Positions 4,980-58,630 of a stretch of DNA of 64,000 nt are shown one piece after another. Below the pieces are notes generated by a model, which was given only the letters and a program-made list of their open reading frames with translations, ran no database searches and had not been told where the DNA came from. Numbering within the stretch: the stretch's first letter is position 1; each line of letters opens with the position of its first letter. The stretch lies in the NCBI GenBank assembly GCA_011839185.1, contig GCA_011839185.1_3918.1. One strand, written 5' to 3'. The position numbers were made by a program, and so were the translations under genes. Source of the DNA: a phage.

Positions 4980-5237
4980 TCATTTTCTCTTACCACCAAT
5001 CTCTACGTCGATAACTTGAACATCACCAGCAACATCAAACTTATGAATGATGCTCTCAACAGTATAAGTCCAACCATCAATGCGAACCAACTCACCTTCT
5101 CGTGGGACGATTGGATTACGTTGAGCTATTGTTGTAGTGGAGTGAACAACATCATAACGATAGGTATAGTTTACTAATACTTCCATCGTGAAAACCTCAC
5201 TCAATAACCGTAGTGTGTGATTGTCCATTTTTGCCAT
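4980..5237 (-). CDS. hypothetical protein (85 aa)
   Basis: ORF only. Confidence 0.35.
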   Translation of the reverse strand: MAKMDNHTLRLLSEVFTMEVLVNYTYRYDVVHSTTTIAQRNPIVPREGELVRIDGWTYTVESIIHKFDVAGDVQVIDVEIGGKRK

Positions 5238-5454
5238 AGTTGTAAGATGTTGTTGTTTGAGAATTTGGACATCTTACAACAACAATATCTCTGCTTATAG
5301 CATCACCATTGAGTTTGTAGATTTTGCAGTCTTGCATCTCTGGAGGGAGGCTGTAAGAAGCATCTTTGTTTTCATAAGATGGGTTGCATCCAGCCAGAAA
5401 AATTACTCCAAGTGCAACCATTGCTTTCACACAACTCTTAACCTTATTGTTCAC
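5197..5454 (-). CDS. putative lipoprotein
   Basis: Signal sequence with lipobox VIFLAGC followed by polar mature region. Confidence 0.45.
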   Translation of the reverse strand: MNNKVKSCVKAMVALGVIFLAGCNPSYENKDASYSLPPEMQDCKIYKLNGDAISRDIVVVRCPNSQTTTSYNYGKNGQSHTTVIE

Positions 5455-54843: not shown

Positions 54844-56259
54844 ATGAGCGAATTATTTAAACATGCGCACCTTCATGCAGGTCGAACTGAAAATGGTGCT
54901 GTAAACCATACTTCATCAATGTCTGCTCTTGTAGACTTTTACAAAGCTGCTGGTTCAAGCCGTAGTAACGTAGAAATCTTACCAGACCTGTTCTACAAAG
55001 CTTTGCGTGAGGATGTTGATGTTGCAGTTCGTATTTTGCTTCATATGCGAGATGTACGAGAAGGTATGGGTGAGCGTAAAGCCTTCAGAACTGTTTTGCT
55101 TCAAGCAATTGAAGATAAAGTTTTAGAGTCTACGCAGGTTCTTCGCATTATGGATAAGATTGCAGAACTTGGTCGTTTTGATGACTTCAAAATCTTCGTA
55201 GGTACTCGTTTCGAGACAGATGCCTTCAAACATTTAGAAGAAGCATTACTAGACCCTGCAACAGCAGGTTTGGCGGCTAAGTGGTTACCACGAGTCAAAC
55301 CACGTCATAAGCAGTTTGTAAAACGTTTCTGCAAGTTTGCCAACTTGAGTGAGAAAGAGTACCGCACACTGTTGTCTGCACTATCTGATACAGTTGAGCA
55401 AAAAATCTCTGCTAATGAGTTTGGTAAGATTGACTACAGTAAGATTCCTTCACTTGCTGCTGCACGTTACCAAAAACTGTTTAACCGTAAAGATGGAGAG
55501 CGTTACAAAGCTTACATCGAGTCCTTATCAAAAGGTGAGGCTAAGATTAATGCTGGTGCTGTTTACCCATACGATGTGATTAAATCTGTCAAGCATGGTA
55601 ATGCAGATGTTGCTAATGAGCAGTGGAAAGCACTACCAAACTGGATGGCAGAAGGTGAAAACATCTTGTGTATGTCTGATGTATCAAGTTCAATGTCTTG
55701 GGTGAATTTTGGCTCCATTACTGCTCTGGATATTGGTGTATCACTTGCCTTGTATGTAGCAGAACGCAATACAGGTTGCTTTAAGAATGAGTTGATGGTT
55801 TATTCAACAAACCCTCACTTCATCGAACTGAGTGGTGATTTACGAAACCGTCATCGTCAGGTGATGCGACACGTTGAATATGGCTCAACTAACTTACAAG
55901 CAGCTTTTGACCGCATTCTTGAGACAGGCAAAAGAAACAACTTGACTCAGAAAGATATGCCAAGTAAGCTTATCATCTTCTCCGATATGGAGTTTAATCA
56001 GGTTGATGGGGCTAACGGTCGTACAAACTTTGAAGCAATTCAGAGTAAGTACAAAAAAGCTGGATATGAGATGCCACAACTGGTATTCTGGTACTTAGCA
56101 AACCGTAATGGTACTTGCGAAGTATCTGTTAAGGATAACGGTGTAGCAATGGTATCAGGGTTCTCTCCAGCCACTTTAAAAGCTCTGCTTGGTGGTGAGA
56201 AGTTTGACCCAATCAGTGTAATGCTCAAAGCAGTAATGATTGACCGTTATATCTGGTAA
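54844..56259 (+). CDS. von Willebrand factor A (vWA/MIDAS) domain protein, possibly TROVE/Ro60-related
   Basis: MIDAS-like DVSSSM ... GSTN ... FSDME in C-terminal half; 471 aa; immediately upstream of tRNA cluster. Confidence 0.55.
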   Translation: MSELFKHAHLHAGRTENGAVNHTSSMSALVDFYKAAGSSRSNVEILPDLFYKALREDVDVAVRILLHMRDVREGMGERKAFRTVLLQAIEDKVLESTQVLRIMDKIAELGRFDDFKIFVGTRFETDAFKHLEEALLDPATAGLAAKWLPRVKPRHKQFVKRFCKFANLSEKEYRTLLSALSDTVEQKISANEFGKIDYSKIPSLAAARYQKLFNRKDGERYKAYIESLSKGEAKINAGAVYPYDVIKSVKHGNADVANEQWKALPNWMAEGENILCMSDVSSSMSWVNFGSITALDIGVSLALYVAERNTGCFKNELMVYSTNPHFIELSGDLRNRHRQVMRHVEYGSTNLQAAFDRILETGKRNNLTQKDMPSKLIIFSDMEFNQVDGANGRTNFEAIQSKYKKAGYEMPQLVFWYLANRNGTCEVSVKDNGVAMVSGFSPATLKALLGGEKFDPISVMLKAVMIDRYIW

Positions 56260-56277
56260 AAAGTTTTAAAAAGGGTA

Positions 56278-56306
56278 TTGACAATGTGTTTAATACCCTT
56301 TAATAT
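56278..56306 (+). promoter_or_regulatory. sigma70-like promoter upstream of tRNA cluster
   Basis: TTGACA, 17-nt spacer, TAATAT. Confidence 0.45.
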
Positions 56307-56423
56307 GTTCTACATAGAAACGAAATGAGAGCTTTTCTAAGATACTGAAAAATATTTTAAAAAGTTCTTGACAACCACTAAAAAATAATGTTAAAGTGGT
56401 TACATAGAGTTTGAAAAGTTTAT

Positions 56424-56582: not shown

Positions 56583-56676
56583 CCAGTTTTGACAGAAGAC
56601 CAATTACAGCAAACTTAATCTTATTCATCTGAAGGTAAATCGGACAAAGAAGAGATTTGGTCTGGTCATTAAGAAT

Positions 56677-56750
56677 TGCGGGTATAGAGAAAGGGCGTCT
56701 CACATGTCTCATTAGCATGGTATCGGCAGGTTCGACTCCTGCACCCGCCT
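56677..56750 (+). tRNA. tRNA with CAT anticodon (Met or Ile-lysidine type)
   Basis: Anticodon loop ctcatta; 1-72 mismatch; T-arm gcagg-ttcgact-cctgc; CCA encoded. Confidence 0.6.
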
Positions 56751-56836
56751 CCAAATTTACAGAAGACCGTTTACAGCAATATTTATTAAATTTTTAGCGG
56801 AAAAATTGAAAGATACGGTCTGGTAATACTAAACAT

Positions 56837-56910
56837 GGTTAGGAAGCACATAAGGTATGTGCGGTCGCCTGTTAAGCGAATGGCACAGGGTTCGAATCCC
56901 TGACTAACCG
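56837..56910 (+). tRNA. tRNA-Asn (anticodon GTT)
   Basis: Anticodon loop ctgttaa; T-arm caggg-ttcgaat-ccctg; CCA encoded. Confidence 0.7.
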
Positions 56911-56982
56911 CCAAATTTAGGAGAGAAGCGATTGCTCACCGATTTGTAAGGTGCAAGTCCTTAGCCTGAATAGAAATCAAAT

Positions 56983-57067
56983 GTGTCGTTATCCCGTAGA
57001 TGGTAGCGGTGGGGACTGTAAATCCCTTGTCATTGAGACTCGGTAGGTTCGACTCCTACACGGCACA
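56983..57067 (+). tRNA. tRNA-Tyr (anticodon GTA), long variable arm
   Basis: 85 nt; anticodon loop ctgtaaa; acceptor gtgtcgt/acggcac; CCA encoded. Confidence 0.7.
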
Positions 57068-57075
57068 CCAATAAA

Positions 57076-57150
57076 GGTTATGTAGTTTAATTTGGTTAAA
57101 ATACTCCCCTGTCACGGGAGATGATGAGGGTTCAAATCCCTTCGTAACCG
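57076..57150 (+). tRNA. tRNA-Asp (anticodon GTC)
   Basis: Anticodon arm ctccc-ctgtcac-gggag; T-loop ttcaaat; CCA encoded. Confidence 0.7.
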
Positions 57151-57298
57151 CCAATTTTGAGAGGGCTATTTAGCCCCTCCCTTAAAGGGTTCTTACGAGT
57201 ATCCTTTAAAGGAGCAGAAGACCAAATACAGCAAGTTACTTAAAATTTCAAGCCAATTTAATTTTGAAAAATTTAAAACTTGGTCTGGCTCAACAAAT

Positions 57299-57432
57299 TT
57301 ACAGAAGACCGTTTACAGCAAAACTTAAACAATCTATTTCTCGGTAAAGAAAAGGCGAAGGTTCGATTCCTTCACTCGGCAGATGTCGAGTTGGTGTAAT
57401 GGTAGCACTTAAGATGATAAACAACGGTCTGG
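57299..57432 (+). ncRNA. candidate structured spacer RNA with tRNA-like T-arm (unit 4 of a repeated family)
   Basis: Conserved 5' box CAGAAGACCGTTTACAGCAA pairs with 3' ACGGTCTGG; contains canonical T-arm gaagg-ttcgatt-ccttc (57357-57373) without matching 5' acceptor, and a D-arm-like agttggtgtaatggtagcac. Confidence 0.4.
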
Positions 57433-57581
57433 TAATTATCTTTGTAGATAAGTTATTAAGCTTACCTGTGAGTATGCGACCACAAAGGGTGAAAGGGTAA
57501 ATTCTAGATTTAAACCTAAAAAGGCACATCGCTACAGACCTTAAGCAAGTCTGGGTAGCTTATCTACAAAGATAATTTAAT

Positions 57582-57735: not shown

Positions 57736-57809
57736 GGTTCAGTCGCAGATAAGGTAATGCAAGGGTCTCATAAGCCCTATGAATGTGGGTTCGATTCCCA
57801 TCTGAACCT
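57736..57809 (+). tRNA. tRNA with CAT anticodon (Met or Ile-lysidine type)
   Basis: Anticodon arm agggt-ctcataa-gccct; acceptor ggttcag/ctgaacc; CCA encoded. Confidence 0.7.
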
Positions 57810-57828
57810 CCAATTCGTTGGTGATATT

Positions 57829-58314
57829 ATGTTTTGTGCTAATAAAGATTGTGACAACAAAGCCGTTAAAGGTGGAAAGTATTGTTCACGCTCTTGTGCT
57901 GCAAGGGTAAACAACAAGAGTCATCCAAAAAGAAGACAAGAAGGCTCTTGTCATTCATGTGGAAAGCAGACACCAAAATCAAGAAAGTATTGTGATGAAT
58001 GTATTTCAAATGGTATTCTGAAACAATACAAAAACCCCGATGAAGAAAAGAAAGCGAAGTCACAACACGTTAAAAAGTCTCGTGACAAACTTAAGAGGGT
58101 TTTAGTTGATTACAAAGGTGGTTGTTGCTCAATTTGTGGATACAATAAGTGCATAAAGGCTTTAGAGTTTCACCACTTAGACCCTAATACAAAGGACTTC
58201 ACAGTAGGACAAAAACACTTCTCTATAGAGGTAATGAAGTCTGAAGTTGATAAGTGTGTATTACTGTGTGCAAATTGCCACAGAGAGGTACACGAAGGGG
58301 TAACAAAGCTGTGA
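57829..58314 (+). mobile_element. HNH endonuclease nested between tRNA genes
   Basis: C-terminal CANCHREVHEG HNH/Zn motif and multiple CxxC pairs; start reset to ATG at 57829 (track start 57757 lies inside the tRNA). Confidence 0.6.
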
Positions 58315-58380: not shown

Positions 58381-58398
58381 CCAATTTCAATAAAGTTG

Positions 58399-58427
58399 TT
58401 GACATTGAGATGTGACTACTTTATAGT
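58399..58427 (+). promoter_or_regulatory. sigma70-like promoter inside tRNA cluster
   Basis: TTGACA, 17-nt spacer, TATAGT. Confidence 0.45.
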
Positions 58428-58630
58428 AACCTTAGTTTTCGTTGCGTAGCGTCTATTTTGCAAATTTAAAATAAATGCAAACGACAATGTTTTTCTGGCA
58501 GTAGCTTGATAGGCTAAACACCAGTGAGGTCTTCCAATCCCTCATCAAAGAATTTGGCGTACTCGCCCACGGTATGATTAATAAGGTGGGCATCTTTAAG
58601 GGCTTTCTAAGAGAGTCTTTAAAGATTAAT

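What the first reader, a model, noticed from the sequence alone, without database searches (positions are those of the whole stretch)
57299..57580. tRNA-like fragment (T-arm without acceptor partner) and a 19-bp long-range inverted repeat next to it
Unit 4 contains a canonical T-arm (gaagg-ttcgatt-ccttc, 57357-57373) followed by actcggc, but no complementary 5' acceptor strand upstream; a D-arm-like agttggtgtaatggtagcac follows it (permuted order relative to a tRNA). Immediately downstream, AATTATCTTTGTAGATAAG (57434-57452) is perfectly complementary to CTTATCTACAAAGATAATT (57559-57577), enclosing 106 nt. This is the kind of architecture seen in Y-RNA-like RNAs with tRNA-mimicking modules, or in a degenerate or split tRNA. 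The cluster lies just downstream of a vWA protein that might be Ro60/TROVE-like (see separate finding), which makes a Y-RNA-like interpretation worth testing, though it is speculative.
Basis: inference. Interest (0 to 1): 0.6.

Follow-up and report, generated by a model that had tools for sequence, protein, structure and literature searches.

The report
Y-RNA-like RNAs beside a phage Ro60-like gene
The "broken tRNA" is a conserved tRNA-mimicking small RNA, one of four to five structured RNAs that sit beside a Ro60-like phage gene and share a stem-plus-ACAGCAA signature that recurs next to this gene in very distant phages.

The parts
54844..56259 (+). Ro60-like protein gene (471 aa; Pfam DUF2828 + DUF7788, PHROG 850 'RNA-binding protein'): helical-repeat N-terminal half plus a vWA domain with MIDAS residues D279-x-S281-x-S283, T349 and D381
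   Evidence: Inferred orthologue of Bas63 gp130.
56278..56397 (+). Two sigma-70-like promoter matches (TTGACA-17-TAATAT at 56278-56306; TTGACA-18-TAAAGT with a TG at 56368-56397) upstream of the first tRNA. They probably drive the tRNA and small-RNA array.
   Evidence: consensus matches only; the number found is not above shuffles. The 16-mer around TTGACA is repeated (D17).
56593..56665 (+). Unit 1: CAGA-AGACCAA-tt-ACAGCAA, 44-nt variable module, TTGGTCT-GG. Lies between tRNA-Glu and tRNA-Met.
   Evidence: (D8). Rfam Class I 19.7 bits.
56760..56823 (+). Unit 2: CAGA-AGACCGT-tt-ACAGCAA, 35-nt module with a small hairpin, ACGGTCT-GG. Lies between tRNA-Met and tRNA-Asn.
   Evidence: Rfam Class I 20.1 bits.
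57215..57288 (+). Unit 3: CAGA-AGACCAA-at-ACAGCAA, 45-nt module, TTGGTCT-GG.
57302..57432 (+). Unit 4, the tRNA-mimic unit: closing helix AGACCGT/ACGGTCT and core ACAGCAA (57315-57321) enclosing a tRNA-like module.
57333..57355 (+). V hairpin of unit 4 (equivalent of the variable-arm region).
   Evidence: Pair 43/53 of alignment A3 changes on both sides in two sequences.
57357..57373 (+). T-arm GAAGG-UUCGAUU-CCUUC, almost invariant across Ounavirinae.
57374..57391 (+). Capped acceptor-like hairpin ACUCGGC-AGAU-GUCGAGU (7 bp).
   Evidence: Three compensated versions occur among relatives.
57393..57409 (+). D-arm GUGU-AAUGGUA-GCAC, preceded by U8-like U57392. A14, G18, G19 and A21 equivalents are present.
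57434..57577 (+). IR element: structured RNA of about 150 nt closed by a 22-24-bp helix. It starts directly after unit 4 and ends 4 nt before tRNA-Lys.
57525..57543 (+). Terminal hairpin inside the IR element, CAGAC-CUUAAGCAA-GUCUG. It keeps the AG...CUG stem signature with a core-like loop (CUUNAGCAA) and may be a minimal copy of the unit motif.
   Evidence: stem G-C to A-U compensated, loop conserved. Minimal hairpin units exist elsewhere. AGCAA is enriched in unit interiors.

Best explanation
Positions 56593-57577 encode four, probably five, small structured RNAs that are transcribed together with the tRNA array and released by tRNA-processing nucleases. They are most likely the RNA partners of the Ro60-like protein encoded just upstream (54844-56259), which makes this a divergent Ro60/Y-RNA-type particle. 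The part all units share is a 7-bp helix joining the RNA's two ends (first pairs A-U and G-C, 3' end CUG), followed on the 5' side by a 2-nt linker and single-stranded ACAGCAA. I take this to be the protein-binding handle. The interior is a swappable module. In units 1-3 it is short and AU-rich. In unit 4 it imitates the top half and elbow of a tRNA (V hairpin, T-arm, capped 7-bp acceptor, D-arm, no anticodon arm), as in bacterial YrlA. Such a module could tether the particle to, or act as a decoy for, enzymes that recognise tRNA shape. The inverted-repeat element is a further conserved RNA. Its long perfect helix is also a plausible RNase III site separating unit 4 from tRNA-Lys. What is shown: the sequence and structure conservation, the covariation, the linkage to the gene, and the Ro60 fold. 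What is inferred: expression, processing, binding and biological role.
Against: No expression, RNA-end or binding data exist for these RNAs. Everything here is comparative. The canonical Ro-binding motif GNCGAAN0-1G is absent. Rfam YrlA does not hit the window's unit 4 at all and stays below its gathering score of 69 in relatives. Pfam does not assign the protein to TROVE. gp130 alone, from a plasmid or inserted into T7, counters Ppl, so at least that activity does not need the phage RNAs. Only 36 of the 80 distant viral loci have a strict signature-bearing unit (47 with the looser definition). Core variants exist and were not counted systematically. In some phages the motif lies in the gene's own 5' leader, which fits a cis-regulatory role equally well.
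Confidence: 0.68

Rival explanations
1. The units are cis-acting elements, not stable trans-acting partner RNAs. They could be autoregulatory operators on the Ro60-like gene's mRNA, or processing signals for the polycistronic tRNA transcript, with the IR element as an RNase III site.
For: Many units in distant loci lie 11-60 nt upstream of the gene's start codon. In Vibrio phage phi-pp2 the motif sits in the 5' leader, 22 nt before the ATG and just after a promoter-like sequence, with no tRNAs nearby. The IR element has a near-perfect 22-24-bp helix whose pairing is maintained by compensation, which is the kind of duplex RNase III cuts (established knowledge). gp130 works against Ppl without phage RNAs.
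Against: There are up to four copies per locus. Units also lie downstream of the gene or up to about 1.2 kb away inside tRNA arrays (window; Yersinia phage). Elaborate tRNA-like modules have no obvious use in an operator. [quoted passage not shown] The two readings are not mutually exclusive.
Confidence: 0.17
2. Unit 4 is a decayed or rearranged tRNA gene, a pseudogene produced by recombination or homing-endonuclease activity in the tRNA array, and has no function of its own.
For: Its T-arm region is 84% identical to that of the array's tRNA-Ile (D5). HNH endonuclease genes are interspersed in the array. tRNA arrays are known to be recombination-prone (general knowledge).
Against: The permuted order with a capped 7-bp acceptor is kept across Ounavirinae with three compensated acceptor versions. 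It recurs in at least eight unrelated loci, always inside an ACAGCAA-type closing stem and always on the gene strand. About 210 phage records conserve the stretch.
Confidence: 0.04
3. The ACAGCAA-stem RNAs act through something other than the Ro60-like protein, for example by binding a host RNA chaperone or nuclease, or by base-pairing through ACAGCAA to a conserved target. On this view they merely share regulation or inheritance with the gene.
For: No binding data exist. Extra AGCAA copies are enriched in unit interiors (26 against 7.3 expected), which would also fit a multivalent sponge for another factor. The look-alike Dictyostelium Class I RNA is known to bind an RRM protein, Rnp1A.
Against: The tight, strand-specific adjacency to this one gene holds across phages of very different hosts, and none of the other nine window proteins tested from this neighbourhood recurs in those loci. 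Every characterised Ro60 has its partner RNAs encoded next to it.
Confidence: 0.11

Closest known systems
YrlA-type bacterial Y RNAs with Ro60/Rsr (Rfam RF02553; Chen et al. 2014, PMC4201824)
   Same: The RNA is encoded next to a ring-shaped Ro60-fold protein gene, often in several copies. A stem joins the RNA's 5' and 3' ends. One RNA per locus carries a tRNA-like domain in the order V, T-arm, capped acceptor-like stem-loop, D-arm, with near-invariant T and D loops. Like M. smegmatis YrlA, the acceptor stem here has 7 bp.
   Different: The protein belongs to DUF2828/DUF7788, not Pfam TROVE, and shows about 13% identity to Ro60 in structural alignments. The presumed binding handle is a 7-bp helix plus ACAGCAA in place of GNCGAAN0-1G. 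The Rfam model scores are sub-threshold or absent. The RNAs are embedded in a phage tRNA array.
Thermus phage phiLo Ro60 with Yrl1/Yrl2 (PMC12135203), and Y RNAs of mycobacteriophages, CcrColossus and phage G
   Same: A phage-encoded Ro60-fold protein with phage-encoded partner RNAs next to the gene, and a proposed role in evading host defence (phiLo Ro60 recruits host PNPase).
   Different: Those are canonical TROVE proteins, and their RNAs carry the conserved CGAA motif. No ACAGCAA handle and no tRNA-array context are reported.
Dictyostelium Class I RNAs (Rfam RF01414; Kjellin et al. 2021, PMC7919456; pattern in PMC5054030)
   Same: A short terminal stem whose structure is conserved but whose sequence is not, joining the 5' and 3' ends. 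It starts with G and ends C-UG. The same single-stranded motif follows the 5' strand (D. discoideum GTTGRC-CTT-ACAGCAA...GTCAAC-TG; phage W-G-N5-UU-ACAGCAA...N5-C-W-G). The interior is variable, the length is similar (42-65 nt against about 50-70 nt for short units), and there are many copies. RF01414 is the only Rfam family that hits the units (13-30.7 bits).
   Different: Class I RNAs are eukaryotic nuclear genes with their own promoter element. The linker is usually one nucleotide longer. All phage scores are below the 41.5-bit gathering score, and many units are not hit. The known direct binder is the RRM protein Rnp1A. Whether Dictyostelium has a DUF2828 protein was not testable here.
Circularly permuted tRNA-like genes (two-piece tmRNA genes; permuted tRNA genes of red algae), from general knowledge
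   Same: The T-arm and 3' acceptor strand precede the 5' acceptor strand and D-arm in the gene.
   Different: Those are processed into functional aminoacylatable molecules with a CCA end, and in the case of tRNAs an anticodon arm. Here there is no anticodon arm, no CCA after the 3' acceptor strand, and the acceptor is capped by a 4-nt loop.

Membership tests
YrlA / bacterial Y RNA (RF02553) | tRNA-like domain in the order (V) - T-arm - capped acceptor-like stem-loop - D-arm, enclosed by a stem formed from the RNA's two ends | tested here: met
   MFE fold; alignment fold with a compensated acceptor stem; structural census.
YrlA / bacterial Y RNA (RF02553) | tRNA tertiary-interaction nucleotides (U8, A14, G18-G19, A21, T-loop UUCRAnn) | tested here: met
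   Read from the sequence: U57392, D-loop AAUGGUA, T-loop UUCGAUU. The 15-48 Levitt pair would be A-C, so that one is not canonical.
YrlA / bacterial Y RNA (RF02553) | Conserved GNCGAAN0-1G Ro-binding motif in the 5' strand | tested here: not met
   The 5' strand carries AGACCGU-UU-ACAGCAA instead. A GGCGAAG at 57354-57360 lies at the V/T junction and reads GGAGAGG in Felix O1 itself, so it is a chance match.
YrlA / bacterial Y RNA (RF02553) | Score at or above the Rfam gathering threshold (69 bits) | tested here: not met
   No YrlA hit on unit 4 even in a 156-nt search. Related units in L106 and L053 reach 36.7 and 39.2 bits.
YrlA / bacterial Y RNA (RF02553) | Encoded adjacent to a Ro60 orthologue | tested here: inconclusive
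   The adjacent protein has the Ro60 fold but belongs to Pfam DUF2828/DUF7788, not TROVE.
YrlA / bacterial Y RNA (RF02553) | Bound by the Ro60 protein; carries tRNA-type modifications (DusA, TruB) | not testable with these tools
   Needs RIP or EMSA and modification mapping.
Ro60 / TROVE protein | Ring of helical (HEAT-like) repeats followed by a vWA domain with a MIDAS site | tested here: met
Ro60 / TROVE protein | Sequence-level membership (Pfam TROVE PF05731, or a PDB Ro60 hit by sequence) | tested here: not met
   Pfam gives only DUF2828 and DUF7788. phmmer against PDB finds no Ro60. NCBIfam gives nothing.
Dictyostelium Class I RNA (RF01414) | Short stem joining the 5' and 3' ends, conserved in structure but not in sequence, with conserved terminal residues | tested here: met
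   The 7-bp helix covaries. A G-C pair and a 3' C-W-G are conserved. Compare the D. discoideum pattern ending C-TG.
Dictyostelium Class I RNA (RF01414) | 11-nt motif CCUUACAGCAA directly after the 5' stem strand | tested here: inconclusive
   In the window 9 of the 11 nt (UUACAGCAA) are present in units 1, 2 and 4, and 8 of the 11 in unit 3 (AUACAGCAA). The linker is 2 nt against 3, though a 3-nt linker occurs in Yersinia phage P778.
Dictyostelium Class I RNA (RF01414) | Score at or above the Rfam gathering threshold (41.5 bits) | tested here: not met
   13.0-20.1 bits in the window, 30.7 in L072, 14.7 and 17.3 in L032, none in L095.
Dictyostelium Class I RNA (RF01414) | Dictyostelid nuclear gene with a DUSE promoter element about 60 nt upstream | tested here: not met
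   This is a bacteriophage locus.
Canonical tRNA | Cloverleaf with an anticodon arm, detected by tRNA finders | tested here: not met
   ARAGORN gives no call at 57299-57433. Rfam tRNA gives a truncated 15.5-bit match covering only the T-arm and 3' acceptor strand. There is no anticodon arm and no CCA.

The most novel reading that the evidence does not exclude
The ACAGCAA-stem RNAs and DUF2828/DUF7788 proteins form a second, widespread Ro60/Y-RNA-like particle family that reaches into eukaryotes. On this reading the Dictyostelium Class I RNAs, so far described as unique to Dictyostelia and with no clear mechanism, are the eukaryotic counterpart of these phage RNAs and bind a DUF2828-type Ro60-like protein. 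DUF2828 proteins occur in plants and in giant viruses of protists, and Class I RNAs share the terminal stem, the UUACAGCAA motif and the 3' CUG end.
Probability: 0.3. Interest if true: 0.9.

Novelty: new variant of a known kind. Interest (0 to 1): 0.74.

Why it matters
DUF2828/DUF7788 is a large family of unknown function in phages, giant viruses and eukaryotes. In the Felix O1-like phage Bas63 it is a transferable counter to the Ppl defence system, by an unknown mechanism. A conserved, easily recognised RNA signature next to the gene gives that protein a concrete candidate ligand, and it turns "some tRNA genes may be Y RNAs" into specific RNAs that can be cloned, mutated and pulled down. It extends the Ro60/Y-RNA principle of a ring protein, a handle stem and a swappable module that includes a tRNA mimic to a second protein family with a different recognition motif. 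About 210 sequenced Ounavirinae genomes leave this stretch unannotated or call spurious ORFs on it. If the Dictyostelium resemblance reflects a shared protein partner, it would offer a mechanistic lead for a 20-year-old orphan RNA class.

Tried and rejected
- Rfam at gathering threshold, and in sensitive mode, on the window: no YrlA, Y RNA or any other family covers unit 4 or the IR element. The one weak YrlA hit (61141-61263, 17.3 bits) spans two real tRNAs and is spurious.
- Sequence searches of the protein against PDB and NCBIfam gave nothing useful. Only structure comparison revealed Ro60.
- The AlphaFold-database fold search, which would have listed eukaryotic and Dictyostelium homologues, was unavailable.
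- Avesson 2011, Aspegren 2004 and the Sim/Wolin 2020 review are not held, so the other Class I-binding proteins could not be checked.
- The MAFFT alignment of tRNA-like units from different phages (A4) was too poor in the variable parts to build a trustworthy covariance model. I used explicit structural censuses with strand and decoy controls instead.
- A relaxed-core scan of the rest of the tRNA array found only noise. The ACTGAAGACCGT site at 59731 is not a unit.
- A conserved anticodon-like stem in unit 4 (CUUA/UAAG in the MFE fold) is not supported in relatives.
- The 76-aa ORF on the minus strand (57299-57529) is mechanical. Felix O1 RefSeq annotates no CDS there.
- Tandem real tRNAs can imitate the T-AS-D pattern when the 'loop' contains CCA (L074 1012, L103). 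These were discounted.

Full report
**What the window is.** ARAGORN finds 26 tRNA genes on the + strand between 56424 and 62203. BLAST places the region in Felix O1-like phages (Ounavirinae): it is 96% identical to Escherichia phage MET-P1-301 and to Salmonella phage Felix O1. In the annotated relatives Felix O1, Si3 and Henu11, the stretch between tRNA-Asp and tRNA-Lys carries no annotation. About 210 phage records contain 56590-57581 at 80% coverage or more. Among the 60 records listed across the full range of matches, the annotations under it are only tRNAs, HNH endonucleases and 'hypothetical protein'.

**Checking the observation.**
- No tRNA is called at 57299-57433, and Rfam tRNA gives only a truncated 15.5-bit match.
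That is true, but the strand exists downstream. GTCGAGT (57385-57391) pairs with ACTCGGC (57374-57380) over a 4-nt loop.
- The minimum-free-energy fold therefore shows a V hairpin, a T-arm, a capped 7-bp acceptor hairpin and a D-arm, all enclosed by a helix made from the two ends of the unit.
- The inverted repeat is real. It is 22 nt at 95% complementarity, and the element folds with z = -5.5.

**The repeated unit.** 'Unit 4' is the fourth copy of a motif that matches exactly four times: AGAAGACC-N4-ACAGCAA at 56594, 56761, 57216 and 57303. The only other matches in the 64-kb window carry three mismatches. Each copy is followed 35-101 nt later by N4'-GGTCTGG, where N4' is complementary to N4.

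**The neighbouring protein.**
- The 471-aa ORF at 54844-56259 is Pfam DUF2828 + DUF7788 and PHROG 850 'RNA-binding protein'. Sequence searches against PDB and NCBIfam find nothing.
- An AlphaFold model built from 36 homologues is confident (pLDDT 87.7, pTM 0.87).
- The top 11 Foldseek hits in PDB are all full-length Ro60/TROVE proteins.
- The MIDAS residues DxSxS, T and D are invariant in the family.
- This is not new for the protein. [quoted passage not shown] It speculates that some of the tRNA genes might be Y RNAs but identifies none. I infer orthology with this ORF from genus, position and fold. I did not retrieve the Bas63 record itself.

**Does the RNA go with the gene?** I fetched 80 viral loci whose protein is 29-47% identical to the window's.
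- A strict definition (7 of 7 pairs, fixed 2-nt linker, ACAGCAA) gives 82 hits on the gene strand against 15 on the other. Dinucleotide shuffles give 9-27.
- Adding the signature W-G at the 5' end and C-W-G at the 3' end leaves 57 units in 36 loci. Of these, 52 lie within 1 kb of the gene and most within 400 nt, on either side.
- As a control that does not depend on selecting for pairing: 68 5' halves (WG-N7-ACAGCAA) lie on the gene strand against 5 on the other. Sixty of the 68 have a perfect 7-bp partner, against 18-23 for decoys of the same composition.
- Across 37 distinct stems, six of the seven pairs change on both sides, and one G-C pair is invariant. The covariation score is 0.81 against 0.09-0.16 when the 3' partners are slid. 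The two inner positions that I had not selected for are mostly unpaired, so the helix is 7 bp followed by a 2-nt linker.
- Of ten window proteins from this neighbourhood, only the Ro60-like gene recurs in the distant loci, which were themselves fetched by that gene. DUF5681 recurs in 1 of 80 and the HNH gene in 3 of 80.
- The result repeats in an independent set of 80 contigs from bacterial and archaeal genome assemblies: 32 against 3 halves and 20 against 0 full units, mostly 20-280 nt upstream of the gene.
- Named phages show it too. Yersinia phage vB_YenM_P778 has several units in its tRNA array. Vibrio phage phi-pp2, which has no nearby tRNAs, has the motif in the gene's 5' leader.

**The tRNA mimic is a family trait.**
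- Within Ounavirinae the acceptor hairpin of unit 4 occurs in three fully compensated 7-bp versions (ACTCGGC/GTCGAGT, ACACGTT/GGCGTGT, ACCCTTC/GAAGGGT). The T- and D-arms are almost invariant. This is the pattern described for YrlA.
- I ran a structural census for a T-arm followed immediately by a capped hairpin with 6 or more of 7 pairs and then a D-arm. It finds such modules in L043, L044, L045, L053, L055, L058, L094, L106/107 and the window. All are on the gene strand. The other strand has none with a 7/7 stem and a D-arm.
- L074 holds a further such module that the census pattern missed.
- All of them sit inside closing stems of the same type. Their cores are slight variants (UUCAGCAA, UACCGCAA, UUCCGCAA, UUUCAGCAG, UUGCAGCAU).
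- The Rfam YrlA model hits two of them well above noise though below threshold: L106 over the full model at 36.7 bits (E 2e-4) and L053 at 39.2 bits (E 3.8e-5).
- Unit 4 has the U8, A14, G18-G19, A21 and T-loop equivalents but no anticodon arm and no CCA.

**The inverted-repeat element.**
- It is 94-99% identical in close Felix O1 relatives. BLAST misses it in the more divergent Ounavirinae (L003, L020-L025), but the structure is conserved there.
- In the alignment fold, eight pairs change on both sides. They include several in the long helix and one in the terminal hairpin.
- That hairpin, CAGAC-CUUAAGCAA-GUCUG against CAAACC-CUUUAGCAA-GGUUUG, keeps the AG...CUG-type stem ends and a loop one base away from the unit core.
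- Minimal hairpin units of 33-38 nt exist in other phages. AGCAA is enriched inside unit interiors: 26 observed against 7.3 ± 2.5 in shuffles.
- I therefore read the element as a fifth, composite RNA that may present one more binding site. Its perfect 22-24-bp helix is also a plausible RNase III site between unit 4 and tRNA-Lys. This part is the least certain.

**Mechanism.**
- Two sigma-70-like promoter matches lie between the gene and the first tRNA. The scan finds no terminator-like site on the + strand between the first tRNA and 58400. Spacers to the flanking tRNAs are only a few nucleotides. Co-transcription and release by tRNA-processing enzymes is therefore the simplest reading, but it is inferred.
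- By analogy with Ro60 and Y RNA, I propose that the closing helix plus ACAGCAA is the handle bound by the ring protein, and that the interior is a module that gates or tethers.
- The tRNA-like module could recruit, or act as a decoy for, enzymes that recognise tRNA shape. All of this is inferred.
- The main caveat is that gp130 alone restores plating on Ppl hosts, even when moved into T7. That activity therefore does not need these RNAs.

**Comparison with known systems.**
- Canonical phage Ro60s are TROVE proteins, and their Y RNAs carry a CGAA motif. Here both the protein family and the RNA handle differ, and formal YrlA membership fails on the motif and on the threshold.
- The only Rfam family that touches the units is the Dictyostelium Class I RNA, at 13-31 bits against a gathering score of 41.5. 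Some units are not hit at all.
- The architectural match is close. The D. discoideum pattern is GTTGRC-CTT-ACAGCAA...GTCAAC-TG. The phage pattern is W-G-N5-UU-ACAGCAA...N5-C-W-G.
- Class I RNAs are reported to be unique to Dictyostelia. They bind the RRM protein Rnp1A plus three other proteins.
- The DUF2828 fold occurs in giant viruses of protists and the family occurs in plants. Whether dictyostelids encode one could not be tested here.

**Verdict.** The Y-RNA-like interpretation is supported by comparative evidence. The tRNA-pseudogene reading is rejected. The RNA family is absent from Rfam 15, and I found no description of it in the searched literature. I class it as a new variant of a known kind. 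No experimental evidence for expression or binding was available.

Noticed in passing
window 58394-58630: Weak tmRNA-type matches (permuted tmRNA RF04321 at 20.3 bits; tmRNA RF00023 at 15.9 bits) in the gap between tRNA-Ile and tRNA-Arg. One distant phage with the same Ro60-like gene has a clear permuted tmRNA (L055 293-616, 71.7 bits).
   Followed up: no
window 59697-59792: A structured spacer between tRNA-Thr and tRNA-Val, closed by CAGAGGTC/GACCTCT. It contains GAAGACCG, the 5' stem sequence of the units, but has no ACAGCAA core. It is not a unit under the definition used here.
   Followed up: partly
window 59200-59289: A long hairpin (26-nt arms, 85% complementary, 38-nt loop) between tRNA-Ser and tRNA-Leu. 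It draws only spurious plant miRNA-precursor matches in Rfam.
   Followed up: no
window 57185-57209 and 61094-61118: A 25-nt repeat, AAGGGTTCTTACGAG(T/A)(A/G)TCCTT(T/A)AA (88% identical), at two separate places in the array. A similar CCTTTTACGAGGGTTCTT occurs in the array of the Yersinia phage (L112, about 5730).
   Followed up: no
window 56914-56982: The gap between tRNA-Asn and tRNA-Tyr contains a T-arm-like hairpin, AAGGTGCAAGTCCTT (56948-56962), with no tRNA call. It may be another tRNA-derived fragment.
   Followed up: no
window 57757-58314: An HNH endonuclease ORF (PHROG 2255; annotated as 486 nt in Felix O1). Its mechanical ORF start overlaps tRNA-Met (57736-57812) and its stop overlaps the first bases of tRNA-Ile (58308).
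   Followed up: partly
window 57299-57529, minus strand: A mechanical 76-aa ORF covers unit 4 and part of the IR element. Several GenBank records annotate 'hypothetical protein' over this stretch. These calls are probably spurious, given the conserved RNA structures on the + strand.
   Followed up: partly
L111 (Vibrio phage phi-pp2) 2960-3000: The UUUUACAGCAA motif lies in the 5' leader of the Ro60-like gene, 22 nt before the ATG and just downstream of a TTTACA-17-TATAAT promoter. This suggests possible autoregulation by the protein.
   Followed up: partly
L112 (Yersinia phage vB_YenM_P778) about 5205-5215 and 5400-5410: The 3' ends of two units read CCAGCAACAA, so the core-like CAGCAA is repeated immediately after the 3' stem strand.
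   Followed up: no
window 56268-56283, 56358-56373, 61693-61708, 61756-61771: A repeated 16-mer, AAAAAGnnnTTGACA. It forms paired promoter-like sites in front of the tRNA array, and again at about 61.7 kb.
   Followed up: no
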